The notes below the pieces were generated by a model. That model ran no database searches and was not told the DNA's origin. It was given only the letters and a program-made list of their open reading frames with translations. From Curvularia clavata (Eukaryota): 64,000 nucleotides of DNA. A program made the translations under genes and the position numbers. Shown piece by piece: positions 45,074-63,147 of this stretch. The stretch covers positions 2,852,001-2,916,000 of the forward strand of contig CP089276.1 of assembly GCA_023920165.1 (NCBI GenBank), read 5' to 3'. Position 1 is the stretch's first letter, and every line of letters starts with the position of its first letter.

Positions 45074-46698
45074 TCATATCTGTCCTTTGATATCTACTTT
45101 GCTGAATGCGGCAGCACGGAGGCTTTCGATTTGCGCCGCTACGTCGCGGACCTTGACCCGATATTGGTGGTTGCCTTGGTCTTCAATAACGTTCTGTGCA
45201 CCGTGGGTTTCGAGAAATTCACGGCATGATTCATCGTTGTCGAAACCAAGCTCATCAGTGAGGAAACGAAGAGAGACATTCATATATCTGCGCCTGTCAA
45301 CAAACCGTTCGACAATAAAAAGAATCCCACAACAATAATAAAAAAATATCAAGCTTACCCGCGAGAAATATTAGCCAGCGCGTGGAGGCGTTCACGCTCA
45401 ACAAACATGTCCATGAGGTAAGCGCCCATGTTCTCGGCTGCAAGGTACAAGCGGAAAAACTTGTGGTAGTTGCCAAGAGCAAGTGAAGATCGGACATCAA
45501 GAGCATGTTTGATCCAGGGATGGGCTTTGTCTGCAGGGGTTAATTCGGCCAACATGTCGTTCATGTCGGTTTTGTTGCACGTATACACAAAATAAAGAAT
45601 GCGGTACGCTTTGAACTCGGCTGGGTTGCCGCCCAGGTTCTGCGCATACAGTGCCTTGAGCTGTGTCTGGCACTGGTTGTACTCACCCAAATCACCTTTC
45701 TCCAGTGATATCCGCGCGTGAATCTCGTATACCTTAACCGTAAAGGCATTCTTGATGTGTTGAACCGTGAGATCCTGGCGCAGGGACTTGAATTGATTAC
45801 AAATGTAGTTGTAGTTCTTTTCTGCCTTCCATTTCTCCATAAGCATGGCCAAAGTCTTCTTGAGCACATGGAGGGGGCGAACAGTCTCAGCCTTTGGAGG
45901 TGCGGTCAGACGGAAATAACTCTTTTCGAGGTTCTCGTTGGTTCCGACGACGGGTCCAGTAGGCATTTCGTCTTCGTCTTTGCGTGGCGAGCCCCAGGGC
46001 GGTGTCGTCTTGGTACTGTTGCTGCCGAGCTGAAAGCGTTGTCGTCGCTTGTCAAGCTCGGCCTGGTCAAACTTACTTGCGGTGCCCGTGAATCCGTTAC
46101 TCTTCTTTTGGCGCTTTTCGGTAGGTCCGTCGCTGTAAGTCATGCGAGATGCTAGGTTAGTTTTGCGCCAAGGTGGGACACTGTCTTGTGCTTGTTCAGC
46201 TGAGGCTTCCTCAACGTCGTGCGCATTGCGCTTCTTCGAAGGCGGGGTTTTCTGGTTAGTGTGCTCGGTAGAGCCGTTTACGTATAGAGATTGCTGCATG
46301 GTGGTTGCAACGCCATTGGCAGCTATGTTGTGCGCCGCCGCATCTCTCCGCTCCTGGAGCAGAAGCTGCTGGGGTAGGGGAAAGGTAGGCCAATGTACCG
46401 TATCATGAGCGTTGCGCTCGGCAAACCAGCCGATCGTGGTCTTGAGCCTCGCTTGCATCTCTGCTTGTGAGATGCCCGGAATCGCGTTGGCTGGGTCGAA
46501 GGCACGTCGAACGTACTCGCGTACTGCAGGCGGCCACTCGACCTTTTTCTTGGGCTGCTCAGGAGCCATACTAGACTGCATGTATGTATGAGTAAAGGCA
46601 GAAGGAACCAGGGAAGTATGAACACTTACAGATGAGGGTGCGGGAACTGGCTGGAGGGTGGTTCGTGGCGTGACGGTGTTGTATGCGGGTGACTGCAT
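45074..46698 (-). CDS. SAC3/GANP-family PCI protein (Thp3/LENG8-like)
   Basis: VVGTNENLEKSYFRLTAPP..VRPLHVL, YICNQFKSLRQDLTVQHIKNAFTVKVYEIHARISLEKGDLGEYNQCQTQL and C-terminal VDIKGQI. Start uncertain (46698 or 46737). Confidence 0.88.
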
Positions 46699-47088
46699 TG
46701 GTCGCGCCCAAGCAACGGTGGCAGAGGGCAGGGACATAGACAAAGGAAAGGGGGCGAAGAGGGGGACGGAAGCGTGAAAGCAGGTTGGGATATGAGAGGT
46801 CGACACAGCACACGCAGGCAGAGATATCAGAGGAGAGGATATACGGATTACGATGATTGTGGAGTCGAGGGTGAGGGTAGGAGGAGCGACGGCCTGTACA
46901 GCGAGGGTGAGTGATTTGCGTTGCGCGTGTGCTAGGCGGGCTGGCCGTTGGCACGCTAACTACAGGCGGCCTAGCGTCGGGCTTATGACGACGTGCCGGG
47001 CTGGGGGCAACAGGCAATGGGCCAGACGACACCAGATTGCAGTGCCATGGCTGTATCTTGCATACACGCTCACTTGCCCATGCTCTGA

Positions 47089-48983
47089 ATGTTCTTGCAC
47101 CAGCTCGACCTCACTACCGCACTGCGCCCGTCGCTCCTGCCGGAGGAGACGCTGCTGTTTGTCCAAGACGCCGTGGGGCTGTACGAGGGGTACGCGCATC
47201 CGCCCAGGACGCTCGTCTGCTGCTGCTGAACATGTGCATAGGAAATTCAAGATACCACAGTACCAGAACGGCCAGTCGTATCTGACCTCGCACCGGGTCT
47301 GCTATGTCGACCACAATGAGCCTCGCAAGAACTCCGTCGCTATCTTCCTGAAAGATGTCGAGAAGCCCGAATTCTATGTATGATTAATCGATATGGCTTC
47401 CTCTATAAGCATTGCAGCGACTGACAATTACAAAGGCTGGTTTCCTCAAATCCTCACCCAAGGTCACCCTCTACCCAAAGCCTTTGAAGCAGCTGACTCG
47501 AGGTGCTTCTGTTGCTCCCACGCCCTCGGTCTCATCCTCGTCAACTCCACCGCGACATAGCAGCCCCGCACCACCACCTCCTGCGAGTGCGACGTGGGTG
47601 TGTCCTATCTGCTCCTTTTCCAATCCCGTTCCTTCCAACTTCGATCCTGCTCTCGCATCTCGCACCCCCATACCGCCATGTCTGGCTTGTGGCATAAAAC
47701 CGCCGACTGTACATGTGGTGAAGGCAGCTATAGCGGCCATGTCGAACCGACCAGCCCCTGGTCCGCCTCCAAAAGACATCAAGAACGGAACACCGCCGCC
47801 TCCTTCGGTTTCCACGACATCACCGTCAGCATGCCCTCGTTGTACCTACCAGAATCACCCTTCTCTACTCAACTGCGAGATGTGCGGCGCATCCTTGACA
47901 ACGGCCATTGACAAGCGATTTGATATGCTTCAGGAGCCTAGCAGATCACAATCTCCGGGTCCGACGCTCTCATCACCATTACAGACTGAGACCATCGAGT
48001 GCATCAAGATTTCCTTCCGTGCTGGCGGGGGTCCCATATTCTTTGAGCGTCTAAAGAATGCCTTAGTGCAGCGCAAATGGCTTCTTCAGAGCGCTCCGCC
48101 TATTCCTAAACCACGACCAACTTCTGGTGCGTTTGAAGACGGGCATACTGCACAATCCGAGACGTCGTCCGCAGAAGTCGAGCGACCACGGGTGGTTGGC
48201 ATTGCTGGTTTGGAGCGACGCGGACTAGAACAGAGACAGAACAATGAGGCCATGATAGGCAGTGCCTTTGAGGATCTTGAAGCTTTGATGACTTCTGCAA
48301 AGGAAATTATCGCTCTGGCAGAACAGTTCGCATCACAAGCCAACCTGGGCACCAATAGCAGCTCCGAAGCAAATGCACTAGCTTCTCAGTCGGCATCTGC
48401 ATTGGGCCTGGTAACGACAAAGGACATGCTTGGCTCCGGCTCGGGTTCCGAATCACTATACGTGTCGGAGCTTTCTAGAAATCTTGCCGAGTGGCTCACA
48501 GACGATACTAATGGCATTCTTCGGAAAGAGGGTGGGATCATGACGCTTGTGGATCTCTGGGCCGTCTTCAATCGTGCCAGGGGCGGTGTTGAACTCGTCA
48601 GTCCCTCGGATTTTGAAAAGGCAGCACGGATGTGGGATACTTTGAAGTTGCCAGTGCGCCTGAGGAAGTTCAAAAGTGGTCTCCTCGTCGTGCAAGGTCG
48701 CGACCGTACTGACGAGAAGACGATTGCTAGTCTTCTGGCTTGGCTGAAGACTCTTCACCAAGAGCCGCCCAGCACGGAAGTCACATGGGATTGGCAAACA
48801 TTCGGCAGAGGAGTGACGGCACAGGAAACGGCAGAAAGGTTTGGCTGGAGTGTCGGTGTTGCGACAGAAGAACTAGAGATGGCTGAAGAAGCGGGTGCTC
48901 TCTGTCGGGAGCAGGGTATTGATGGGTTCCGTTTCTGGGAAAACTGGCTGGTCAAGATGCCGGAGGAGGCCACAGCCACTTGA
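47089..48983 (+). CDS. VPS36: ESCRT-II subunit Vps36 (split GLUE, two NZF fingers, EAP30 domain)
   Basis: MFLHQLDLTTALRP..VGLYEG|KFKIPQYQNGQSYLTSHR..|AGFLKSSPKV; WVCPICSFSN..CLACG; CPRCTYQNHPSLLNCEMCG; GIAGLE..AFEDLEALM; VFNRARGGVELVSP. Confidence 0.95.
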
Positions 48984-50697: not shown

Positions 50698-51419
50698 GGC
50701 TAGATCCGTGACCAGGGTGCCGTATGCTGACTGCCCAAAGAGGTTCGGATAAGCTGGTTCTGGTTGTAGCTGTGTTTGAATACCCTGTAGCCTGTATACT
50801 TGGCTGCTGCGGCATATTGCATAAGGAGCACTTGGCTGCTAGTCATGTTTTCTTGGGTGGCACAAAATGTCCATCAATCAGGAACTAGGTTTGTGTGTAA
50901 TTAGTGGTGAAGCTATTTTTTGCTTCCAGAAAAGATACGAGAACTTTTTAATCATTAGTTCTACTTTGAGTAACGTGCCCTAACAAATACGACACCTATT
51001 CCGGCTTCCGTTTACTCCATTTGCTGAAGCTCGTCTGAAACTAGAGTGCCATCAAAGGCTACCAATCGGCACAAAGAAAGCAATATGTTCAGTCCAGCCT
51101 AGTAGATATTTGTTGCGTCATTGAAGGAATAAGTCGTCACTTTGGCTGACTGTTTTCAAGATTATTTTTTTCTCAAATTGATTCATTAGAAGATGGCCGA
51201 TCTTGCGATCGATCAGTGTGTATATAGGAGAAGATTACGTGTAGTGAAACCGAAGGAAAAGAAAATATCGAAGAATGCATTTCTTTTCGAACGAGTGTTT
51301 CACAACACCGGCATCAAGGACACGTCAGCCATACTTGTACTGTGGTGCTGGAAAAAAATTGCCAAATATTTGGTTATGTGGTATGCTACGGCCGTAGCCC
51401 ACGTCGTCATGTGACGTAT

Positions 51420-52035
51420 TCAAGACTGCATCTTGATGACTACCTTTGAAGGATGGGCTTGGAGAAGCGTCAGCAGCAATAGCGTATGTACATGGGTGCA
51501 GGTGGACTCACTACCCATGATATCTGCAAAGACACCGTCGTCTTGGGTCATTAGACCGGCGCCTAGTTATTGTTTATTAGTGTATGAGTTGTTAATTAGG
51601 AAGGAGAGTCAAGTCGACAGTGCACCGCCACAAGTGAAGCTAAGGCATACCGGAAAACTCGAGTTTGTAGGACTCGCCATCCTTGGTAGCGACGACGTCG
51701 TGAATGGGCGTTGCAGTGTCAGCTTTGAACCAGAATACCATTTTCGGCATCAAGCTGCGGTTCTCGGCCAGAGCTCGGGCGAGAACATGGCCGTTGGATT
51801 GCAGACGCTTGTCCTTGAGCTCGAAGACGGCGGGCTCGGAGCCTGTCTTTGCATGGGTGCGGTCTTGGGTATCCGCTTGGGGCTTCGCGACGGGGTGGCC
51901 GTCGATTTCGACGGTGAAGGGGGCTGGGAGTGAGTCCATTGCTTTTGCTGAGTAAAAGTGCAGGGAGAGCAGGATCAGGCAGAATAAGCCAACAGCCCAG
52001 GTTAGATTGCGACGTAGTTTTGGTTCGGCGGGCAT
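51420..52035 (-). CDS. Putative beta-trefoil serine protease inhibitor (I66/mycospin-like); 157 aa from ATG 52035 or 125 aa from ATG 51939
   Basis: Exons 52035(51939)-51651, 51562-51512 and 51457-51420. Motifs ARALAENRSLMPK and KDGESYKLEFSGAGLMTQDDGVFA. The gene model is well supported; the function is inferred. Confidence 0.65.
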
Positions 52036-53790
52036 TCGTGTTCAGACGTGAGTGGGGTGTTGCAAAGGGCTGGGTAAATGGATGGTGTGCGGTCAGGGTT
52101 ACTAGTAAGTAGTGAGCAGCTGCCTAATGACAGGTGCACTGTACCGCAGCATCACTACGGCCACGACAGCACAGCTACCCATTGCTGTGGCTCGGACCAC
52201 GAACCGGCGAGTCCGGAGAAAGGTACGTGTGGCACAAAACGGTGGATGCGGCTGAAGGAGTCGCTGTGCGAGTCTGGCGGTACGGCTATGTGCCCCAGAC
52301 CGGGCTATGCAGGAGGCAGTAGAAAAGCAACGACAGCTGACGTGCAGTGACGTTATTGCGAGGCGTAAACGCCCGGTGGGTGTTGTGCAGAGTTCCGCAG
52401 TTCGGCGGCGGACGACATAGATTGACTGATTGCAGGGCAGAGGAGGCAGAATTGCTTGTCGCCGGCTTTGGGCCAAGAGAGGCAGGAGAAGTGGGAGGAC
52501 GTGGTGGGGCAGAGTATAGGGCGGAGCCGTAAGCCTTGGCAGTGCGCGCGTGAGCCGGTCGTATACCCCGAAGCGAGCACTGATCATCGCCCAAACGGTG
52601 ACTACTCGCACCCTGCCCATAACAGCACAAACGAAACAGCATCGCCCTGGCGTACGACCCCGATCGTGGCGGCAAGACAGGAACAGCGCCAAGACACGCC
52701 CGGCACCTGTGAGCGCGTCCGTTGCGGCAGGTCCTTTGTGCCTTGCTTTGCATCCCAGGGCATCCTAAGCCAGCTCTCGCACGTCATTCGCCCAGCAACC
52801 CACTCGTGTCCCCTGCCAATCATGCCGGCCAATATACACGCTGCATCGCGGTTCGTCGTGGTCGAATTACTTACAGATCCCCCATCCATGCTCTGGTCGG
52901 TATCCGCGCCTGATGTGGCAAATCCTTAGGCAGCACCATGCCAACTAGACCAACAACACGACTCAGTTTGTACAACCAGAAGATAACATTGCAGCAGCAA
53001 CAAAATGCACCCGCCGGCCGCTGGCAATCCAGGACGACTGCTCGGAGATCGACAAGGGACGCACAATGCGAGCGTGCTTGGCATCTACGCCCAAACCTCA
53101 TCTCCTGCTTTCTCGGGAACAGCGTACGGTTGAAACACCAAGCAATACTGCCGTTGGCGCCTGGAAACCACGCCAGTAGCTGAGCTGAAAAAGGGAGGTA
53201 CAGCAACTTGCCATGGCCCAATTTGGCCGTCGTTGGCCAGTGGCGCAGTGACGAGGGCCTCTCACATTCCATACCGTGCCTACGCAGGGCCGGAAAAGCA
53301 ACAAGACGCTGTAACCGTGAGGCAAAATACACACACCCAGCGACTCTGATCCTGGCATTCGGGAGCAACCGCAAGATCAGCTGCCTCTTTCGGATTCGCT
53401 GCAGGGTATGCATTGCGAAAGCTTAGCCCATGCGTAGATAAGGTGCCTGCTAGGCTCGGGGTAATTGACACCCCACTGTTCGATCCAAGGCACGCAGCGG
53501 ACTACAGGTTAAGACTTTGCCAAGCAATGGCAGGTCCCAAATGGGAAGGACAAATCACACTCCTGGTAGATCAGTCTTGGTATGCCCTACCCGACACGAA
53601 GGGCAGGTCATGCTTCTAGTCTGTACACCATGTCTATAGTGTGTATGTGAGAGTACCACATACAACTATAAGTATCCAGCTGTCTTCCCTTCTTCGAAAT
53701 TCATCAGCCAGCTCATCCAGTCGCTTGTCTCTTCACATCCAGTCGCTTCTATACCAAAGAAAGCCTACCAGCTTCTCAAGACCATTCACC
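52036..53790. promoter_or_regulatory. Shared divergent promoter with 7 PacC-type GCCARG sites and a trypsin TATA box
   Basis: GCCARG on either strand at 52472, 52535, 52646, 52688, 53077, 53351 and 53519. TATAAG at 53667. Confidence 0.5.
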
Positions 53791-54651
53791 ATGCGTTTCG
53801 AATCTATCCTCGCTGTTGCCCTCCCCGCCCTCGTTGTGGCTGCTCCTGCCCCTCAGTGGGAGGATGCTCCTGAGGAGTCCATTGTTGGTGGAACTTCTGC
53901 CGCTGCTGGCGAGTTCCCCTTCATTGCCTCTATGCAAGTTGGCGGCAGACACATCTGCGGTGGTACCATCATCAACCGCAACACCATCGTAACTGCTGCC
54001 CACTGCTCCGTCAGCAGTGTTATTGGCTCTGTCAGCAACCTCCGTGTCCGCTTGGGCTCTCTGGTAAGTCCCGCTTGATTAATCCAGTTGCACATGCAAA
54101 AAGCAAAAAACCTTCACAGAACAAAACACTAACTCTTCTTCTAGTCCACCACCTCTGGTGGCACCACCTCCGCCATCTCCGCGGTCTACGTCCACCCCAG
54201 CTACAACCCTGATAGCCAGGACTTCGACATTGCCATCTGGAAGCTGTCCACCCCCATCTCCGCCGGTGGCAACATTGCCTACGCTAGCCTCGCCGCCTCT
54301 GGCAGCGACCCCGCTTCAGGATCCACCGTTACCGTTGCTGGCTGGGGCGCTACCCGTGAGGGTGGCAGCGCCTCCAGCTCCCTCCTCAAGGTCAGCGTTC
54401 CCGTTGTCGCACGCAGCACCTGCCAGTCTCAGTACAGCTCCGAGACTATCTCCACCAACATGGTCTGCGCTGGCCAAACCTCTGGTGGAAAGGACTCTTG
54501 CCAGGGTGACTCTGGCGGCCCTCTCGTCGATGCCTCCAAGACGCTTGTTGGTGTCGTCTCTTGGGGCTACGGCTGCGCCAGGCCTAACCTCCCCGGTGTC
54601 TACTCCCGCGTCGGTTCCCTTCGCTCCTTCATCACCCAGTACTCTTCTTAA
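53791..54651 (+). CDS. Secreted trypsin (peptidase S1A), 2 exons
   Basis: Signal peptide, short acidic propeptide, IVGG, CGG, TAAHC (His), DFDIA (Asp) and [12 protein letters not shown] (S1 Asp189 plus Ser195). Intron 54064-54144. Confidence 0.97.
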
Positions 54652-54917
54652 GAAGCGGTATTTGCCACAGATACTCTTCTTGAGTAGCCTGTATTCGTCA
54701 CAGATGAACTGCAAGCCTTTCTTTGTATCTTCTATTTTGGTATTTGGCTGGGACACGAGAGCACGCCTATAAGCGAGCGAGGATGAGATGGAATGACAGC
54801 GACTGGATGGAAAGCGGATTCTACCCTTTTCCCCCTTGCTTAATTCTGGCACTTGTAAATAAGTTTGCCTCGATGAGATTTGAATATATGACTGGATTTT
54901 CTTACACTTTGAGCATA

Positions 54918-55045
54918 TCATGGCCCTTTGTGACAATTACAGTGAAGTCTAAATTTTGGTACTAATAGCCCCTCGTGACAACTGCAGCGAACTATGCAAG
55001 CTAAAAATCATGAGCTCTTGTGACAACTATAGTAAGCTACAAAGT
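54918..55045. repeat. Degenerate 45-bp-period tandem repeat (3 units)
   Basis: GTGACAA at 54930, 54975 and 55020. Confidence 0.55.
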
Positions 55046-55713: not shown

Positions 55714-56970
55714 CTAACAGCTTATAGAACTCTGCTCATCTATTTGCACCTCCATGACAGCCAAATAACTACCAGTAGGCTGTTTCCATGATTTCAGATG
55801 TAGTCGCGGATCGGTCGCCGCAAAAAGCTGCTTCCACTCGTTTAATTCACGCTCCTTGGTATTAAAGAGTTGAGCCATGGTTAGGTCGCGAAAGCGTATG
55901 GTGGCTTCTTGAACACGACTGAGCGTTCCGGGTGCGGGGACAATTGCATCCATGATGATGAGGCGGGCTCGCGGATTACCCCCGTCCTGTATGGCGACGG
56001 CAAGATGCTGCAGAATCTCGTGTGCTTGCTCATCTGACCAATCGTGGAGAACTCTACGTAATAAGTAGATATCGGGCGCTGAGCCGCTATCTCGAGGTGG
56101 CTGAGGCATAAAAAAGTCGTGGGCAGCAAAGCGTACGCGCGAGGTCACGGCATCGCTGGCCAGTTGAGGGAGTACAGCCTTGCCTTGTTGCACTACCTCA
56201 GGAAGATCCTGGACGATGAATTGTAGGCGTGGAAAAGCGGAAGCAAGTGCCAAAGATGCGTGCGCGGTCGATCCGCCCACGTCGACTATAGTCGCTTCAC
56301 CTAGACTAGCCCAGTCGAAACCGTTAATAAGGTGCTGGAGCCGCCCACCTTCGCTCTGACTTGTTCCGCGCATATAACCTGAGAATACCTTCTCCATTTC
56401 TGGTTTCGTCTTCATATATTCCCACAAAGCCAAGTCCGTATCGAAAGCCACGTTGAAAGCAGTCTCATTTTTGGCTCCAGAGCTAGGCCATTTGGCTGTA
56501 GCTTCTGCAAATCGACACGCTATGGACATGCCATATTGCGTTGTCCAAGAGATCCAATTCTGGAAGGAGGTATCCGCTGCCAATGATGCTGAAAGCTGAG
56601 TGTGTGCAATTTCTGTGGCCGAGGGTTCAAAGAAAAACCCTTCCGTCATAGCCATGCGTGCGACTGACCGCAGCCGCATGATAGGTACACCTGCTTTCTT
56701 TGCGAGGTCCGTGTAGGAAATGGAACCAGAATCGGTGGGAACATAGTTGAAGATCCTAAATCTTACCAGCCAGTCAAGACAAGAGAGATATTGGTAGTGT
56801 AGTAAGTGTTCTTCGAGTAGTCTCGGTACTGTCATCACTGAGGTTTGTAGCTCCCGTGTCGCTTCGAATAGTGCTCTTGTTGAGTCCTCATTGACATTGT
56901 TATCTTCCAGTTTCTCTGCCTCTTCCAGAATCCGTCGCGCAAGTTTGACTAGAGAGCTCGATCGGTTCAT
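55714..56970 (-). CDS. SAM-dependent O-methyltransferase (secondary-metabolite tailoring type), intronless
   Basis: N-terminal winged-helix dimerisation region, NETAFN, GFDWASLGEATIVDVGGSTAH, FIVQDLP, AHDFFMPQP, YLLRRVLHDWSD and KERELNEW. Confidence 0.93.
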   Translation of the reverse strand: MNRSSSLVKLARRILEEAEKLEDNNVNEDSTRALFEATRELQTSVMTVPRLLEEHLLHYQYLSCLDWLVRFRIFNYVPTDSGSISYTDLAKKAGVPIMRLRSVARMAMTEGFFFEPSATEIAHTQLSASLAADTSFQNWISWTTQYGMSIACRFAEATAKWPSSGAKNETAFNVAFDTDLALWEYMKTKPEMEKVFSGYMRGTSQSEGGRLQHLINGFDWASLGEATIVDVGGSTAHASLALASAFPRLQFIVQDLPEVVQQGKAVLPQLASDAVTSRVRFAAHDFFMPQPPRDSGSAPDIYLLRRVLHDWSDEQAHEILQHLAVAIQDGGNPRARLIIMDAIVPAPGTLSRVQEATIRFRDLTMAQLFNTKERELNEWKQLFAATDPRLHLKSWKQPTGSYLAVMEVQIDEQSSISC

Positions 56971-58731
56971 ATTAGTGTAGGGTGTTTGGGCCAAAGAAGG
57001 CAGAGCTAGCGAATACTGGCGTGTAGCCTGGTACTGAAGTATTTAGAACATTTGACATTTTTATTTTATCCTTCGGAAGAGCACGGTAATCTCCTTACCC
57101 CGCAGCGGAATGTGCTCGGTGCTAAGGTTACGAGACTGCCTGGACGCAAAGTTAATGATGCCGACGCACGGGCTAAAACCACCATTTTCAATGTGACGCA
57201 GAGTCAGTAATGAACAATTAGAGTGAGACGTACCTCTGGCTTGTTCCATAAGTAATACGTGGTTAGCAGTAATATTAGAAGGAGTAAACAGCAGTTTCAG
57301 TGTGGGCAAATTAGTACACTAGTAATGCAGGCTCGATCAATCAACTTGTAGTGCTCATTTCAGCTGCTACATAGAGCTAAAAGAAAAAATCGTAGACCTC
57401 AGAGCCTCTACACTGTGCAAAGCCTCGATTAGACTATTTGCACGCTCTAGCGTTCACTGATATAGCCTCTTATGCGCAACCTTATAAACCACAAGAGGCG
57501 AATTTGCCGAGTGGATAGATACTAGGAACTTGGAAATTATGAACTACATTTCTGGTATCTCGTAGAATCTGATAATATTCAGCAAATGGACAAAACGCGC
57601 TCAAGACGGAAGGGTGGATGCTCGACCAAGCTGATTCAAGTGGAGCCATGACAACAAGGGCCCCACATTTGGCGACCAACTTACTTGCTTCGCAACTCCC
57701 CACTTCTGCGCTTATGTACGACTTGTCGGAAAGATATAAGTTAACACTATTAATTGCTAGGTTCATTGAGTATATACGAACGAACAACGACGTCAGCTTC
57801 ATAACGCGGAAGTACTTCTATCCAACTAAGTTTCCGTACATGGCGGAATGACGTTGTTGACACAGTGAGAATATCGATTGCTGCAGTATCTACAACTAGT
57901 AGCCGGGGGACTATCGTTCGATGTCTGCACCCTTGGACCAATGTCATTTGCCCCACCTGCTTCGTATCATCTCCGAACTTTATTTTTATACGCCCAAATC
58001 ATATCATGGCCGTGACATTTGTCAAAGCCCTGAATGACTCGATCGTTCAATCAGAACCGCTCGAGCAATTCACCTTGCAGAGCACATTTGCCGAGTTTTA
58101 ATATTACACATTCCCTGTATTCGCGCTCGGCCAGGACTTTCCATATCCGATCTTCAGGAAGCAATTAAAGTGGTCAATGAACAGGCTTGAGCACAGCTCG
58201 GCTTCGAGGACTTGGAGTTGGCAAATATGGGCTATGCCGCAGCTATTGCCGACCCTTGGCAGCTTCATGAGAGAAGTGCACCAGATATAGTGCATTGATA
58301 CTATAAGGAATTCAACAAAATCGGCTCGCGCACCGTCAATAACCCACAGCGGTATTCGCTTGGGTTTCTTGGGATTTTCTTTTTATGATTGAATGAAGGT
58401 GGATGCTGTGTTGGTGTTTTATGATGCTCGTCATAAACACCCTAAAGATGTGCTGGTTGCCGTAAAGGTGTACGCGGTAAACCCCGAAAAGATCGGGCTA
58501 GCTATCGTTAGACTAAGTCAAGGTGATGATACTTACGAAATGAGAAACGAGACAGCGCACTAGAGTGAAGCAAGAAAGAAGGTGAGTTGGTGAGTTCACA
58601 ACATTATCTGCTAGGACTGGCTTACAGCACAGTGCCAATTGGAAAGGCTAGGATGCTCGAATACAAAGTAATGAAGCCTAATTCCTGTATATCTAGAAAG
58701 CCTAGGTTTTGGGATTAACATGGCCCACTTT

Positions 58732-60726
58732 TCACTTCTCGTACATTTTCCAAGATTCATCATTCGTGATGCCTTCCTTTCCAACCTCAATGACTTGCAA
58801 TACTTCTTCAAGAACATTCTGTGTCAGGGTTGATTCCTGGCGTTCCCTTGCAATCGCACACCCCAGCCTGATCGCACTCTTGATCTGCCTACCATTCAGC
58901 TCATACTCTCCAAGCGTCGTCGGCTTGACGTCACTTGCGACCTGCAACGAAACCTGCTTGAGTAGGTTCGTCCAAATCTGTGCTCTGGCTTCGGGTTTTA
59001 GACTTTCATATCTCAGCGCAAGCGTTATCCTACTCTCAAAAGCCGGATCTAGAATGCGCACGCGGTTCGTTGTTAAAAAGAGTATACCTGAGTAGTACTC
59101 CAATAGGCGCAGTAGAACGCACACCATTGAGTTGCGGACCAAGTCAGAAGTGCGTCTTTGCTCGAGAAACACGTCAGCTTCGTCTAGGATTGTGATGGCA
59201 TTCCACTCTGAACATAGCTCTAACACATCTGTAACGCGGCGTTCCATGTCTTCTGCTGTCGTGCCTAGTTCACCCATTGTCACGTAGTATATCGGGCGAT
59301 GCAGAACTTCAGCAACGGCCTCGGCGGTCAGCGTTTTACCGACACCAGGAGGTCCATGTAACAGGAAGATGCTACCACCACGCTTGTTTCCGATGATGTC
59401 TTCAACATCAGAATCATTGCCGAACCGAACAAGAGCGCGAATGAGTTGCTTACGCTCCTCAGCTATGACAAGACGCTCGAACGCGGTATCTTGAAATTGG
59501 ATGGGTGAAAGGCCTGAGACCAAGACGTGGCCCCAACACTTTGCAGTGAAGCTGAAACCGACAAGTGCAGGCCAGCAATACGGAACAAACTCAGTAGGTA
59601 CTGTATCCCACAAGATAAGCGCTTCTGTTGCAGAGCTCCTGGTGGATGAAGTAGCAAGCCATTGCCGATAACGTTCGGCAATCTTGACCATCGCAAGCGT
59701 TGGCTCATCCATTCCTTGGCAAGCATGGTGACCCAAAGAAGCTCCTCGACTAGTATCGATCATGACACGGCCGTCCGAGTGCAGCTGGCTGCTCGAGTTG
59801 TTCGCAAGCGAAGAATAGTTTGGACGTGTAAGCCGAGCGTGGCGGAAGAAGGATGCGCTTGAGTATGCCAGAAACTTTGCTCCACCAGCGGCATAGTTGA
59901 CATATTTCTCACCTCGGTACCTCAGATCCTCCATCTGGTCAGATGGAATCAATGTATATGTGAGTTCTGAGAGCGATCGCGCGCGGACACCCGTCCAGCC
60001 ATTCAGTTGCTCACTAACGCTTACTACCGTGAAGTGCTGTCCCACGGTTGCGACAAACTCCATCTTCCAATTGAAGGTTTTTTGGATCCCGGTCAAGCCC
60101 CGATTTTCTTGATAGAAGGACTCTGTCACGAGGAAAATCGCGGTCGTACCTCCTGAGGCACATGCTGCCTTTACAGAAACTCCAGGTCGATATAGTTCGC
60201 CAAGAGCTTCGAAGGTGATGAAATTACGCTCAATCAGGTCATGCGCAGCCTGTATTTCATCGTGATAGGTGGTCTCGAGGAGCTGGATAAGTTCTTCTAG
60301 ACCTGGTATCTGAATTGCTTCCTCGGCGCGACTGAGGTGGAAACCGAACCCCGAGAAAAGATCTAGACAATGTCGTCTCCAGTAATTTAGAAATGCTGGC
60401 GTAGGTGATTCAATTCCTTCGTTGTATTTCATGGCGGCAAATTGTAGACCTCGTAGTCTGCCCAGTATATTGTACAAGTCATATGCGGGAAGAGAGGATA
60501 GTCGGGGTAAGCCCAGGTAATGACGGAGGATAGCCTTGAGGGAGATGGACCCAGTACTGTGTTCGATATCGTGAAATTCAAAGACTTGGTCCTCTTTTGT
60601 ACTTCCACTGACTGTGAAAGGGCGTAGAAAGGGTTTCGAGGTCATCTTTCCTGGAAGCCTAGCTATCGATTTCCCGGCTGGCAGCGATGGGGGAGGAGGA
60701 GGAGAGGGAGGAAGAGAAGTCTCCAT
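58732..60726 (-). CDS. Fungal AAA+ ATPase, intronless
   Basis: GRVMID, VGFSFTAKCWG, AFERLVI, Walker A LHGPPGVGKT, Walker B ILDEAD, EYYSGILFLTTNR, DPAFESRI and LNGRQIK. Confidence 0.92.
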   Translation of the reverse strand: METSLPPSPPPPPSLPAGKSIARLPGKMTSKPFLRPFTVSGSTKEDQVFEFHDIEHSTGSISLKAILRHYLGLPRLSSLPAYDLYNILGRLRGLQFAAMKYNEGIESPTPAFLNYWRRHCLDLFSGFGFHLSRAEEAIQIPGLEELIQLLETTYHDEIQAAHDLIERNFITFEALGELYRPGVSVKAACASGGTTAIFLVTESFYQENRGLTGIQKTFNWKMEFVATVGQHFTVVSVSEQLNGWTGVRARSLSELTYTLIPSDQMEDLRYRGEKYVNYAAGGAKFLAYSSASFFRHARLTRPNYSSLANNSSSQLHSDGRVMIDTSRGASLGHHACQGMDEPTLAMVKIAERYRQWLATSSTRSSATEALILWDTVPTEFVPYCWPALVGFSFTAKCWGHVLVSGLSPIQFQDTAFERLVIAEERKQLIRALVRFGNDSDVEDIIGNKRGGSIFLLHGPPGVGKTLTAEAVAEVLHRPIYYVTMGELGTTAEDMERRVTDVLELCSEWNAITILDEADVFLEQRRTSDLVRNSMVCVLLRLLEYYSGILFLTTNRVRILDPAFESRITLALRYESLKPEARAQIWTNLLKQVSLQVASDVKPTTLGEYELNGRQIKSAIRLGCAIARERQESTLTQNVLEEVLQVIEVGKEGITNDESWKMYEK

Positions 60727-61642
60727 GATTTGTGATGCCTGATGTGCGAATGTCTCGAGGCCTTATATATTGAAGCAGAATAACGCTTGGCCAGCTTCAT
60801 GTTATATTTGGGAATTGATTTAGAGTGCCCCATAATTGACAAAATCGGTTAAACTAATGTTCGGTAGCTTGTATTCATGATGGTGCAGTCGATGGATAGT
60901 AGCTGCCTGAATTGGACGCGCGTCGTGATGTGCAGCCATACGTAGGTACTTTGTTGCCATTGTATCGTAGTTTGTTTTACGCTATCACCACTCAACCCGG
61001 CCTACGGAATGGCAGAGGATACGCCGTTCTGTAGGATCTGTTTTGAGAGAAAAGTAACTCAGCGACAGATTGAAATTACATAATTCACGTGCATAAGACA
61101 ATTTACTGTAAATACGATGCTCAGCGTGAGCATTACTCGGACTCCGCGGTGTTATCTATCGTTCCCAACCTGACTGCAGTCTCTCTGGTTACCATGTGGG
61201 CCATAGTGATGGCAGTTTCAAGAGCCGAAAAAACGCAAGCCAACCGAGGTAAAAGGGGTTGACTGATCAAGGTCAAGAGAGGGTTTTGCTGCTGCCTGCT
61301 TTCACCCCCATCTTGCCAAGTTGCCAAGCCCGGACGCGGGCTGTAGTCCCTTCGCTAAGCCGATGCTAAGGTGTTGCTAGTAACTAGTTAATGGCTAGTA
61401 CTTCTTTAATGGCACTTGAGAGCGATCCTTGATGAAGGCTTCTACAAACCTCGTCTTGAATCATCATATCGAGGTTTTAGGCACCCTGAATTAGATAACT
61501 ACAGTTCATTGTGTAAAACAAAGGGAGCATATTGACCGCGATGAGCAGGTGAACGTAAGTCTTGATTGAAAATCATCTGTGTTTGTCGCGACTTCCGACG
61601 CTACCACAATTGCTTTTCTTTTCCAACAGATCGTACTACATA

Positions 61643-63147
61643 TCAGTAGCTAAACTCTCTAGCTGTGTTCGCTTCGCCCAGGCCCGATCTCTGCATCTTC
61701 TTGTTGCGCCATTGATAGTAAAAACGCAAGCCAACACAGCCAACAGCAACCATGATCAACATTGCAAAATTAGTCCAGTGTCCTGTCGGATAACCCTTCT
61801 CCTTTTCGTTTGCTTTGTAAATCCACACACCTACAATTTGACCGGGTGCTCCAAAAGAAACATTAAGCGCAATAGCAAGTCCTGCTGCGGCGGTACTATG
61901 CATGTTGCTGCTCAACCAGCCTAGGAGCGGTGGGATACATGAGAATGCACCGGTAGCCGCAACAATCAAGCACCCATACCGCGCATGATAAGCGTGAGCG
62001 GGAAGAACTGCCGATGCAAGAAATCCGATCGCACCAATGGTGGACAAGACAGCAGCATGCAATGCGCGAGCGTTGAAGTAGTCTGATGACCAGGCGGTGA
62101 TGAGGGAGATGACATATGCAACAGCATATGGGGGAACCGTCATAAGCTGAGCTTGCAGGTTCTCGTAACCCAAGCCAGCGGTGATGGTCGGAGTGAAGAG
62201 CGATAGCGAGCTGAAAGGTGCGGAAATACCAAAATAGATGATATAGTGTACCCAGAGGCGGCCATCAAGTATGGTTTCCTTGGCTGTCTCCCAGGTGAGT
62301 GAAGGCGCATTGCCTTTTGAACCCTCATTCTCCAAGCGTAACACCGCCAATTCGCGCTCGGATGTCGATAGCCAAGAGACTTCCTCGGGGTAGTCTGGCA
62401 AAAACAGCCACACTGCAATCGACGAGACGCAGGACGGAATCCCCTCGAGGATAAACAGCCATCTGAAAGCGGCAAGTCCCTGTACTTCTTTCATGTGCCC
62501 TACACCATAAGCAATCGCACCACCAAACGCACCCGCCAAAGTTGCGCTTGCCAAAATAATGGCGACACGTAAACTCCTTTCGCGTGCGCGATACCAGAAC
62601 GTCAGGTAGTAAACCAAGCCAGGAAAAAGACCAGCTTCGAACATGCCAAGCAGAAACCTGACCGCAGTGACAGTCGCGTAGTTTTTGGCACCACCGAGCC
62701 CGATTGTGCAAGCGCCCCATCCAAACATGAGGAAGGCAATCCATCGGCTCGGCTTTAACTTCTTGAGGAAATAATTGCTGGGCACTTCAAAGACGGCGTA
62801 GGCAACCAAAAATACCATGAGGGCGATTGTGTATTGATAGTTGGTCATGTGAGTCTCTTGCAGAAGGGAGTGTCCCTCGTTGGCGTTGAGGGTTTTGGCA
62901 TTGCCGATGTTGGAGCGGTCGAGGAAACACAGGAGGTAGATGGTGGCGGACAGAGGAATAATGCGCACATCTTGTTTCCAGATCAAAGCACGAACGGCAG
63001 GAGTATTGGTTTCCTCAATGGCGTCAATGTCTTGCGTACCCTGTTATTTGTGTCAGATCTGTAGTGGCGGTAAAATCTCATGCTGTCGCTTACCACGTGC
63101 TTGCCCAGTTCCTCGTCATGTTTTTCGAGTTCGTGCTGAAGAGCCAT
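61643..63147 (-). CDS. MFS transporter, anion:cation symporter (Tna1/Dal5-like) family, 2 exons
   Basis: DVRIIP..LCFLDRSNIGNAK, FEVPSN, RFLLGMFEAGLFPG, FWY, FRWLFILEGIP and LMTVPPY. Exon 1 MALQHELEK..KHV is followed by a GTAAGC intron. Confidence 0.93.

What the first reader, a model, noticed from the sequence alone, without database searches (positions are those of the whole stretch)
51420..54651. Head-to-head trypsin and candidate cognate trypsin inhibitor: a protease/anti-protease locus
Seen: a secreted trypsin (53791-54651, +, Asp189 specificity pocket) diverges across 1.75 kb from a small 3-exon gene. That gene's product reads RLQSNGHVLARALAENRSLMPKMVFWF...KDGESYKLEFSGAGLMTQDDGVFA. Knowledge, with sequences recalled from memory: MEROPS I66 mycospins (LeSPI, cospin, cnispin) are beta-trefoil trypsin inhibitors characterised in mushrooms. 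They carry R-x-L-A-E-D-R-S-L-x-P-K followed by K-x-G-x-x-Y-x-L-x-x-x-G-A...VFA, and cospin inhibits through an Arg in the beta2-beta3 loop. Inference: the Arg of ENRSL (codon 51759-51757) is the P1 residue, and the two genes form a co-regulated enzyme/inhibitor pair. I know of no description of such a pair in ascomycetes.
Basis: partly seen in the sequence, partly recalled or inferred. Interest (0 to 1): 0.85.

Follow-up and report, generated by a model that had tools for sequence, protein, structure and literature searches.

The report
Fungal trypsin beside its candidate inhibitor
A plant-associated mould keeps a secreted trypsin gene back-to-back with a small gene for a mushroom-type trypsin inhibitor, a pairing kept in several related fungi, which suggests the fungus carries its own brake for this protease.

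Summary
The window matches Curvularia clavata: proteins yc1106_04698 and yc1106_04699 are 100% identical.

- **Trypsin.** A two-exon secreted S1 trypsin lies at 53791-54651 (+).
- **Small gene.** A three-exon gene on the minus strand diverges from it. RNA contigs confirm both of its introns.
- **Family.** Full-length members pass Pfam Inhibitor_I66: 7 of 9 scanned reach the cut-off. A family profile hits cospin (3n0k) at E 1.7e-8, and ENRSLMPK aligns with cospin's EDRSLLPK.
- **Fold.** AlphaFold gives a confident beta-trefoil, pLDDT 93.5.
- **Predicted binding.** A complex model puts the Arg in the trypsin S1 pocket. It scored 0.92 against a best control of 0.59, using a 90%-identical stand-in.
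- **Linkage.** The genes are adjacent in 6 named Pleosporales species and in 7 of 7 informative metagenome loci.

- The reading frame starts 32 codons further upstream and encodes a signal peptide or membrane anchor.
- Only the first half of the I66 profile is matched.
- The reactive loop sits one trefoil lobe later than in cospin.

Inhibition and co-regulation remain untested. I rate it a new variant of a known kind.

The parts
51651..52035 (-). I66-like gene, exon 1. ATG at 52035; the second, conserved Met is at 51939. It encodes the N-terminal hydrophobic signal and most of the trefoil.
   Evidence: The ORF is open from 52035. The GTATGC donor at 51650 and the splice joint appear in X1, X10 and X11. 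RNA contigs span both ATGs.
51940..52035 (-). 32 codons for a signal peptide or signal anchor (MPAEPKLRRNLTWAVGLFCLILLSLHFYSAKA).
   Evidence: Translation. The same extension is present in 6 of 13 close homolog models. Of 111 family members, 40 have an extension of 15 aa or more, and 27 of those 40 are strongly hydrophobic. AlphaFold models a helix at residues 7-27. The region is conserved in frame in L001-L003 and L009.
51742..51765 (-). Candidate reactive-site loop E-N-R-S-L-M-P-K.
   Evidence: It aligns with cospin's EDRSLLPK. Of 111 family members, E is kept in 101, S in 92, P in 100 and K in 96.
51757..51759 (-). Candidate P1 arginine: residue 61 counted from the second Met, 93 in the precursor.
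   Evidence: Arg is invariant in 13 of 13 close homologs, and the position is R or K in 78 of 111 family members. In the complex model it touches trypsin residues 209-214, 229-232 and 235, which form the S1 pocket.
51563..51650 (-). Intron 1 (88 nt).
   Evidence: Joint seen in X1, X10 and X11 contigs.
51512..51562 (-). Exon 2.
51458..51511 (-). Intron 2 (54 nt, in frame, no stop). The public 143-aa gene model retains it.
   Evidence: Joint seen in X1 and X11 contigs. P0004 carries 18 extra residues here compared with its homologs.
51420..51457 (-). Exon 3 with the stop codon (TGA at 51422-51420).
   Evidence: The C-terminus VVIKMQS is shared with the homologs.
52036..52659 (-). Transcribed leader upstream of the ATG. 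The strand is inferred, since contigs carry no strand. It holds six upstream ATGs.
   Evidence: The X1 contig runs to 52659. X10 contigs cover 51963-52234 and 52240-52458, and an X17 contig covers 52175-52418. Upstream ATGs are listed.
53347..53749 (+). Conserved trypsin promoter and 5' UTR: TATAAGTAT at 53667-53675, a 35-nt invariant-rich block at 53701-53735, and AGATAA and GTTAAGACTTTGCCAAG blocks.
   Evidence: 68-73% identical to three other lineages. The pattern is blocks, not a 3-base periodicity. RNA contigs of the trypsin begin at 53714, 53742 and 53767.
53791..54063 (+). Trypsin exon 1: signal peptide, short propeptide, and the mature N-terminus IVGG at residue 31, including His71.
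54064..54144 (+). Trypsin intron (81 nt).
   Evidence: Joint seen in 4 of 4 runs.
54145..54651 (+). Trypsin exon 2: Asp119, the S1 Asp208, Ser214, and the stop codon.

Best explanation
The minus-strand gene (52035 to 51420, three exons) encodes a 157-aa precursor. It has an N-terminal signal peptide or signal anchor of about 32 residues, followed by a compact 125-residue beta-trefoil.

The trefoil is a divergent, short relative of the mushroom I66 inhibitors (mycospins: cospin, cnispin, LeSPI). It most likely acts as a canonical, substrate-like serine-protease inhibitor. The exposed loop E-N-R-S-L-M-P-K would lie in the active-site cleft of a trypsin, with the Arg (codon 51759-51757) in the S1 pocket against Asp208.

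Its most likely target is the secreted trypsin transcribed divergently 1.75 kb away. Both proteins enter the secretory pathway, so the inhibitor could hold the protease in check inside the pathway, at the cell surface or outside the cell.

Shown: the gene structure, homology to I66, the predicted fold, conservation of the loop, conserved adjacency, and presence of both transcripts in the same samples.

Inferred: inhibition itself, the identity of the target, whether the signal is cleaved, and co-regulation.
For: Homology.
- Pfam Inhibitor_I66 scores 27.3-40 bits in 7 of 9 family members scanned, against a cut-off of 27.
- The 7-sequence profile hits cospin 3n0k at E 1.7e-8, and the loop and KDG..Y.L...GA...VFADL motifs are in register.
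- hhalign against a canonical tandem I66 protein from Phlebiopsis gives E 6.8e-6.

Fold.
- AlphaFold2 gives pLDDT 93.5 and pTM 0.80, with 12 strands after an N-terminal helix.
- All Foldseek hits listed are beta-trefoils.
- VIA-align gives Z 12.4 for the best trefoil and Z 10.9 for cospin, with 116 residues aligned at rmsd 2.7.

Loop.
- The Arg is invariant in 13 of 13 close homologs.
- Across 111 family members the P1 column reads R 70, L 12, K 8, Q 5, H 4, M 2, E 2, Y 2. The flanking E, S, P and K are kept in 92-101 of 111. A variable P1 inside a fixed frame is what canonical inhibitor families typically show (established knowledge).

Binding model.
- The window's own mature trypsin was paired with the 90%-identical homolog P0006, residues 33-157.
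- The score was 0.92 in 3 of 3 runs, against a best of 3 controls of 0.59.
- This pass mark was reached by 51 of 78 solved complexes and 2 of 108 mismatched pairs.
- The runs agree in at least 98% of contacts, and the partner's pLDDT is 91.
- Arg93 touches residues 209-214, 229-232 and 235. Residue 92 touches His71 and Asp119. Ser214 touches residues 93 and 94.

Linkage.
- The trypsin lies divergently 1759-1799 nt away in 7 of 7 metagenome loci that have enough upstream flank. These loci form 3 distinct sequence groups.
- Accessions or locus tags are consecutive in C. clavata, Stemphylium lycopersici (3 assemblies), Pyrenophora tritici-repentis, Alternaria arborescens (2 assemblies), A. burnsii and Plenodomus biglobosus.
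- Alternaria has two pairs. A T1-clade trypsin sits beside a P0012-like inhibitor in L004. A T2 trypsin, which groups with the Parastagonospora trypsin at 97/92 support, sits beside a 45-54%-identical inhibitor.

Targeting and expression.
- The hydrophobic N-terminal extension is conserved.
- mRNA contigs span the upstream ATG.
- Spliced contigs of both genes occur in all 4 runs laid. Three are metatranscriptomes from three separate studies.
Against: - No biochemical data exist for any member of this ascomycete family. No paper was found in the held library.
- Only I66 profile positions 13-80 of 146 are matched. Exon 1 alone scores 19.7 bits, below the cut-off.
- The complex model used a stand-in whose loop differs from the window's at five positions (ALGEDRSMRPKK against ALAENRSLMPKM, read).
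- Many trypsin-inhibitor complexes are solved, including trefoil Kunitz-STI complexes that appear. The pass may therefore reflect remembered likeness rather than binding by this protein.
- One control, with the partner kept and the trypsin replaced, reached 0.59.
- The inhibitor side of the window (40.9-52 kb) is collinear with the metagenome loci, so part of the conserved adjacency is ordinary synteny among relatives.
- More distant members are not next to the trypsin seen for the same genome:
  - Massarina eburnea, on different scaffolds;
  - Fusarium longipes, on different contigs;
  - F. decemcellulare, FDECE_1637 against FDECE_3025;
  - A. atra, LOCUS11177 against LOCUS1928;
  - A. panax, on different contigs.
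- The family also occurs in Penicillium and Aspergillus.
- P1 is L, M, Q, H, E or Y in 27 of 111 members, so not all members can target trypsin.
- Mushroom mycospins are thought to act on foreign proteases, those of insects (passages read).
Confidence: 0.55

Rival explanations
1. It is a real trypsin-type inhibitor, but it is aimed at foreign proteases: those of insects, nematodes, mycoparasites or competing microbes. This is the role proposed for mushroom mycospins. On this reading its position next to the fungus's own trypsin is inherited synteny or shared regulation, not a cognate pairing.
For: - Cospin and cnispin are described as defence proteins acting on non-endogenous proteases (passages read).
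- The block on the inhibitor side is collinear among relatives in any case.
- Distant members are unlinked from the trypsin seen for their genomes.
- P1 varies across the family, as expected if targets are diverse.
Against: - Adjacency holds for two old trypsin paralogs in Alternaria and in Plenodomus, with inhibitors only 40-54% identical to one another.
- The far side of the trypsin is not collinear while the pair itself is kept.
- The model docks the loop into this very trypsin.
Confidence: 0.25
2. It is a beta-trefoil with another job, such as a lectin or other binder. It keeps an I66-like loop but no longer inhibits proteases.
For: - Most structural neighbours are ricin-B-type lectins and designed trefoils, with Z 11-12.4, slightly above cospin at Z 10.9.
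- Atlas neighbours include CCL2-like lectin clusters at 0.81.
- Only half of the I66 profile is matched.
Against: - Sequence homology points specifically to I66/cospin and not to lectin families.
- The best-conserved stretch of the family is the E-D/N-R-S-x-x-P-K loop itself.
- The complex model passes its controls.
Confidence: 0.1
3. The short form that starts at the second Met (51939) is the real product. On this reading the protein is a cytosolic mycospin-like protein that guards the cytoplasm, and the upstream 32 codons are untranslated leader.
For: - The Met is kept in 104 of 111 family members, including 35 of the 40 that have an N-terminal extension.
- 71 of 111 gene models start at this Met.
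- It has G at -3 and G at +4, whereas the upstream ATG has C at -3 (read).
- The leader may carry upstream ATGs.
Against: - The upstream frame is open and hydrophobic.
- It is conserved at the protein level in relatives.
- RNA contigs include it.
- One member has Leu at this position and can only be made from the upstream start (P0034).
Confidence: 0.1

Closest known systems
Cospin (PIC1, Coprinopsis cinerea; PDB 3n0k, 3vwc), MEROPS I66 / Pfam PF16850
   Same: - Significant sequence homology: profile E 1.7e-8.
- The same loop motif, E-D/N-R-S-L-x-P-K.
- The same following KDG..Y.L...GA...(V/L)FADL block.
- A beta-trefoil fold, Z 10.9.
- Mycospins are canonical substrate-like inhibitors of S1 proteases (passage in PMC9104457).
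   Different: - 125 residues instead of 150.
- Only profile positions 13-80 of 146 are matched.
- About 43 family-specific residues precede the homologous part, and cospin's last ~65 residues have no counterpart.
- The Arg loop therefore lies between strands 6 and 7, not in the first lobe. That cospin's P1 is Arg27 in the beta2-beta3 loop is recalled from Sabotic et al. 2012, a paper that is not held.
- End-to-end superposition gives 12% identity, against 29% in the local 69-column match. This fits a shift of one lobe.
- It has an N-terminal signal sequence. That cospin lacks one and is cytoplasmic is recalled, not checked.
- It is ascomycete, not mushroom, and is genomically paired with a trypsin.
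Cnispin (Clitocybe nebularis) and LeSPI (Lentinus edodes), other I66 members
   Same: Trefoil trypsin inhibitors of the same family. The family is known to use different loops as the reactive site (passage in PMC9104457).
   Different: No sequences of these proteins were compared here. That cnispin uses a C-terminal loop Lys is recalled only.
Kunitz-STI plant trefoil inhibitors (for example 9ct1 and 3e8l, complexes with trypsin)
   Same: A trefoil scaffold presenting a canonical loop to trypsin. They appear among the Foldseek hits.
   Different: There is no sequence relation. They use a different loop, have disulfides and are larger (168-185 residues).
Protease and inhibitor gene pairs in bacteria (staphopain/staphostatin, alkaline protease/Inh) and the yeast cytosolic inhibitors of vacuolar proteases (IA3, IB2, IC). 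All are recalled, none was searched here.
   Same: The logic is the same: an organism encodes a specific inhibitor of its own protease. In the bacterial cases the inhibitor gene lies next to the protease gene.
   Different: These are unrelated folds and families. The yeast inhibitors are unlinked and cytosolic. I know of no described linked pair in filamentous fungi, and searches found none for I66.
Fusarium oxysporum trypsin (PDB 1fn8) and the SNP1-type trypsins of Pleosporales
   Same: The neighbouring enzyme is an ordinary member of this group: E 1.8e-81, 60-76% identical to Pleosporales and Fusarium trypsins.
   Different: Nothing unusual was seen in the enzyme itself.

Membership tests
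MEROPS I66 / Pfam PF16850 (mycospins) | Sequence match to the family model above the curated cut-off. | tested here: met
   Seven of 9 proteins scanned score 27.3-40 bits against a cut-off of 27, including the window's own public model P0004 at 35 bits. The 2 that fall below are models truncated by intron read-through. Exon 1 alone scores 19.7 bits.
MEROPS I66 / Pfam PF16850 (mycospins) | Match over the whole domain (about 146 profile positions, about 150 residues). | tested here: not met
   Only profile positions 13-80 are matched in every member scanned. Cospin residues 13-82 of 150 are matched. hhalign to a canonical I66 protein covers residues 16-82 only.
MEROPS I66 / Pfam PF16850 (mycospins) | Beta-trefoil fold. 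| tested here: met
   The AlphaFold2 model has pLDDT 93.5. VIA-align gives Z 10.9 to 3n0k and Z 12.4 to the best trefoil. This is a prediction, not a solved structure.
MEROPS I66 / Pfam PF16850 (mycospins) | A basic P1 residue in an exposed loop homologous to cospin's reactive loop. | tested here: met
   The ENRSLMPK/EDRSLLPK alignment. Arg is present in 13 of 13 close homologs. The loop spans residues 87-100, between strands.
MEROPS I66 / Pfam PF16850 (mycospins) | Tight, specific inhibition of trypsin. | not testable with these tools
   Only a structure-prediction proxy is available: score 0.92 against a best control of 0.59, with the Arg in S1.
MEROPS I66 / Pfam PF16850 (mycospins) | No signal peptide and cytoplasmic location. 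This is a recalled property of the characterised members, not a formal criterion. | tested here: not met
   The open, conserved, hydrophobic 32-codon extension lies within the mRNA. No signal-peptide predictor was available.
Peptidase S1A, trypsin type (the neighbouring gene) | The His-Asp-Ser triad, Asp at the base of S1, the IVGG mature N-terminus and a Pfam Trypsin match. | tested here: met
   Pfam E 3e-46. H71, D119, S214 and D208 are invariant in 69 of 69 aligned fungal trypsins. 1fn8 matches at E 1.8e-81 from residue 31.

The most novel reading that the evidence does not exclude
Pleosporales carry an old, heritable trypsin/anti-trypsin gene module. In it, a lobe-shifted (circularly permuted in effect) mycospin has been moved into the secretory pathway. 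It may be a membrane-anchored protein, or a dual protein made from two start codons (secreted and cytosolic). It would act as the dedicated brake of the pathogenicity-associated secreted trypsin. The module has duplicated, or been retained, as a unit: two pairs in Alternaria. If true, this would be the first linked endogenous protease-inhibitor pair described in filamentous fungi.
Probability: 0.3. Interest if true: 0.78.

Novelty: new variant of a known kind. Interest (0 to 1): 0.62.

Why it matters
Secreted trypsins are a hallmark of plant-associated Pleosporales and Fusarium, yet how the fungus controls them is not known.

A dedicated inhibitor, genomically coupled to the protease, would give a direct handle on that control:
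- knock-outs;
- Ki measurements;
- structures of the complex.

It would also extend the mycospin family from mushroom defence proteins to secreted regulators in ascomycetes. And it would add a natural example of a trefoil whose functional loop has moved by one lobe.

The practical by-products are modest. The public gene model needs correcting, and the finding supplies a family-wide annotation for about a hundred 'hypothetical proteins'.

Tried and rejected
- **Own genome.** None is held for this window, so paralogs elsewhere in this genome could not be counted. Within the window there is one copy of each gene.
- **Earlier findings of this scan.** Nothing was found by sequence or by place.
- **Rfam on 51000-55000.** No family reached its cut-off.
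- **Single-sequence PDB search with exon 1.** Cospin was the top hit, but only at E 0.66. A profile was needed.
- **Foldseek against PDB.** No hit reached E 0.001; the best was 6.2e-3. The fold call rests on VIA-align Z scores.
- **Origin of the N-terminal lobe.** I looked for homology between it and the third lobe of a canonical I66 protein, using the tandem Phlebiopsis protein. hhalign aligned residues 16-82 only. True circular permutation is therefore not shown; only the shift of the homologous part is.
- **Inhibitor tree.** It is unresolved: 6 of 11 inner branches are open and three branches are long. No co-phylogeny claim is made. Shared species history would mimic one anyway.
- **Expression level and co-regulation.** All four runs are contigs, so depth cannot rank the genes.
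- **Coverage of the intergenic region.** Only X1 covers 52660-53713, so I draw nothing from the gaps in the other runs.
- **Cospin paper.** PMC3281701 is not held. The open papers I read do not state Arg27, the beta2-beta3 loop or cytoplasmic location.
- **Last protein search.** The 111-row profile returned only 23 proteins, too few to extend the locus-tag test to Didymellaceae or Phaeosphaeriaceae.
- **Intergenic region as a hidden gene.** Conservation upstream of the trypsin comes in blocks (TATA, GATA-like and other motifs) without codon periodicity. I rejected a coding reading.
Full report
**What is there**

The window matches Curvularia clavata. The two gene products are 100% identical to yc1106_04698 and yc1106_04699, both on a 4.75-Mb contig.

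The plus-strand gene at 53791-54651 is a two-exon trypsin.
- Exon 1 is 53791-54063, the 81-nt GT..AG intron is 54064-54144, and exon 2 is 54145-54651.
- The intron is spliced out in contigs of 4 of 4 runs laid.
- It matches Pfam Trypsin at E 3e-46 and Fusarium trypsin 1fn8 at E 1.8e-81 from residue 31, the IVGG start.
- His71, Asp119, Ser214 and the S1 Asp208 are invariant in 69 of 69 aligned fungal trypsins.

**The small gene**

On the minus strand the quoted peptide is present. RNA contigs give the splice joints: an 88-nt intron at 51563-51650 (runs X1, X10, X11) and a 54-nt intron at 51458-51511 (X1, X11). This confirms a three-exon gene ending at 51420.

Two corrections follow.
- The public 143-aa model (P0004) keeps the in-frame 54-nt intron. 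Its homologs and the RNA contigs show that it is spliced out.
- The frame is open up to an ATG at 52035. This adds 32 residues, MPAEPKLRRNLTWAVGLFCLILLSLHFYSAKA.

Evidence that this extension is real:
- It is present in 6 of 13 close homolog models.
- It is conserved in frame in related loci.
- It lies inside the RNA contigs.
- AlphaFold models it as a helix at residues 7-27.
- Across 111 family members, 40 have an extension of at least 15 aa, and 27 of those 40 are strongly hydrophobic.

I read it as a signal peptide or signal anchor. No predictor was available, so cleavage after A-K-A is inference. The second Met is kept in 104 of 111 members and has the better start context, so a second, cytosolic product cannot be excluded.

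**Family**

- Exon 1 alone gives Inhibitor_I66 at 19.7 bits, below the cut-off of 27.
- Full-length proteins pass in 7 of 9 scanned, at 27.3-40 bits. The two failures are truncated models.
- A 7-sequence profile finds cospin (3n0k, 3vwc) at E 1.7e-8, with the next hit at E 0.25.
- hhalign to a canonical tandem I66 protein from Phlebiopsis gives E 6.8e-6.

A profile search of 1.84 billion representatives finds 114 proteins at E ≤ 1e-3, of which 77 are at ≤ 1e-10. Nearly all are 100-200 aa and match from profile position 1. Named members come from Pyrenophora, Massarina, Fusarium, Penicillium and Aspergillus. This is therefore a distinct ascomycete branch of I66. UniRef already labels the Pyrenophora protein 'Inhibitor-I66 domain containing protein'. 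No paper in the held library treats it.

**Fold and the lobe shift**

I folded the 90%-identical homolog P0006. The window's spliced protein is not stored and I did not type a joined sequence.

I used 111 aligned rows. Eight of the 114 hits were left out:
- four long proteins, P0078, P0103, P0107 and P0113;
- three fragments, P0111, P0114 and P0117;
- the canonical I66 protein P0124.

The model has pLDDT 93.5 and pTM 0.80, with a helix followed by 12 strands. Foldseek lists only trefoils, though with weak E-values, best 6.2e-3. VIA-align gives Z 12.4 for the best trefoil and Z 10.9 for cospin, with 116 residues aligned at rmsd 2.7. The 125 residues therefore form a complete, compact trefoil.

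The homologous sequence, however, is mature residues 44-117 against cospin 13-82 and profile positions 13-80 of 146. About 43 residues precede the point equivalent to cospin's N-terminus, and cospin's last ~65 residues have no counterpart. The end-to-end superposition has 12% identity, against 29% in the local 69-column match. The Arg loop (residues 87-100) lies between strands 6 and 7.

I infer that the homologous part is shifted by one trefoil lobe relative to cospin. Whether the N-terminal lobe descends from a third lobe, which would be true permutation, is not shown. That cospin's P1 is Arg27 in the beta2-beta3 loop is recalled, because the paper is not held. An open paper does state that mycospins are canonical inhibitors that use different loops.

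**Does it look like an inhibitor of this trypsin?**

The loop is the best-kept part of the family. Of 111 members, E is kept in 101, D/N in 96, S in 92, P in 100 and K in 96. The P1 column varies: R 70, L 12, K 8, Q 5, H 4, M 2, E 2, Y 2. This pattern is usual for canonical inhibitors (established knowledge).

A complex prediction paired the window's mature trypsin with P0006 residues 33-157.
- It scored 0.92 in 3 of 3 runs, against a best of 3 controls of 0.59.
- The pass mark was reached by 51 of 78 solved complexes and 2 of 108 mismatched pairs.
- The runs agree in at least 98% of contacts, and the partner's pLDDT is 91.
- Arg93 contacts residues 209-214, 229-232 and 235 (the S1 pocket). 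Residue 92 contacts His71 and Asp119. Ser214 contacts residues 93 and 94.

Caveats:
- Many trypsin-inhibitor complexes are solved, so the pass may be from memory.
- The partner is a stand-in whose loop differs at five positions.
- One control was fairly high.

**Linkage**

Eleven metagenome loci encode relatives. A divergent trypsin lies 1759-1799 nt upstream in all 7 loci with at least 1.77 kb of upstream flank: L001, L002, L004, L005, L007, L009 and L010. These form three sequence groups. The other 4 loci are too short to tell. By their trypsins they are two Alternaria lineages (100% to P0149, 98% to P0186) and a Pyrenophora-like one.

Named genomes add pairs with consecutive accessions or locus tags:

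| Species | Inhibitor | Trypsin |
|---|---|---|
| Pyrenophora tritici-repentis | EDU44172 | EDU44173 |
| Stemphylium lycopersici | KNG51986 | KNG51985 |
| Stemphylium lycopersici | RAR04604 | RAR04605 |
| Stemphylium lycopersici | RAR00847 | RAR00846 |
| Alternaria arborescens | AA0113_g6732 | AA0113_g6731 |
| Alternaria arborescens | AA0111_g1282 | AA0111_g1281 |
| Alternaria burnsii | CAI9637195 | CAI9637194 |
| Plenodomus biglobosus | J1614_008723 | J1614_008722 |

In Decorospora (a 117-kb scaffold) and Dothidotthia the two genes share a scaffold.

The Alternaria pair identified by locus tags involves a different trypsin paralog. It groups with the Parastagonospora trypsin at 97/92 support, outside the Pleosporaceae clade, which has 100/98 support. 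Its inhibitor is only 44-54% identical to the others. Two old trypsin lineages therefore each keep an I66-like neighbour.

Evidence against linkage:
- The inhibitor side of the window is collinear with the loci over 11 kb, with Vps36 and SAC3/GANP genes. Some of the adjacency is therefore plain synteny, although the far side of the trypsin is not collinear.
- Family members in Massarina, two Fusarium species, and a third Alternaria subgroup (A. atra, A. panax) are not near the trypsin seen for those genomes.

**Expression**

Spliced contigs of both genes occur in all 4 runs laid. Three are metatranscriptomes from three studies; X1 is shown to be RNA by its splice joints. Contigs cannot rank or correlate expression, so co-regulation is open.

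**Verdict**

| Claim | Probability |
|---|---|
| Homology to I66 and the trefoil fold | about 0.95 |
| Inhibitor function with Arg as P1 | about 0.75 |
| Neighbouring trypsin as the physiological target | about 0.55 |

The main rival is a defence inhibitor aimed at foreign trypsins. The finding is a new variant of a known kind: a short, lobe-shifted, signal-bearing mycospin relative, kept beside a secreted trypsin across Pleosporales.

Noticed in passing
window 51458-51511 and 51940-52035: The public gene model (143 aa, P0004) retains the in-frame 54-nt intron 2 and starts at the second Met. RNA contigs and homologs support a 157-aa product. Many homolog models are truncated after '...FSG' because intron 1 is read through.
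   Followed up: yes
window 52036-52659: RNA contigs extend 0.4-0.6 kb upstream of the inhibitor ATG: X1 to 52659, X10 to 52458, X17 to 52418. The stretch holds six upstream ATGs, including short uORFs starting at 52182 and 52152. It could be a long regulated leader or a separate transcript; contigs give no strand.
   Followed up: partly
window 52633-53790: In run X1 one spliced contig joins the whole intergenic region to the trypsin mRNA. The three metatranscriptome trypsin contigs start at 53714-53767. This could be an upstream start, an antisense RNA or read-through; it is unexplained.
   Followed up: no
window 53347-53749: The trypsin promoter is 68-73% identical to Alternaria-like and Pyrenophora-like loci, although the trypsin proteins are only about 60-67% identical. 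Conservation is in blocks: TATAAGTAT at 53667, a 35-nt block at 53701-53735, and AGATAA (GATA-factor-like), GTTAAGACTTTGCCAAG and CGGAAGGACAAA motifs.
   Followed up: partly
window 52452-52558: A ~100-nt intergenic element matches the three other lineages at 71-74% identity, but in the opposite orientation (E 1e-9 to 1e-11). This suggests a small local inversion or a palindromic element within the transcribed leader.
   Followed up: no
window 45358-48980 and 55717-63043: The pair sits at a synteny boundary. On the inhibitor side, SAC3/GANP and Vps36 are collinear with relatives. On the trypsin side, an O-methyltransferase, an AAA ATPase and an MFS transporter have almost no counterpart in the related loci.
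   Followed up: partly
proteins P0011 and P0024 (homologs from Exserohilum and Pleomassaria): UniRef names these fungal I66-like proteins 'LPS export ABC transporter periplasmic protein LptC'. This looks like an automatic mis-annotation.
   Followed up: no
family alignment A4, column of P0006 residue 33: The Met that begins the mature trefoil is kept in 35 of the 40 members that also have an N-terminal extension. This is unusual for a residue just after a signal sequence, and it hints at a second start codon or a structural role.
   Followed up: partly
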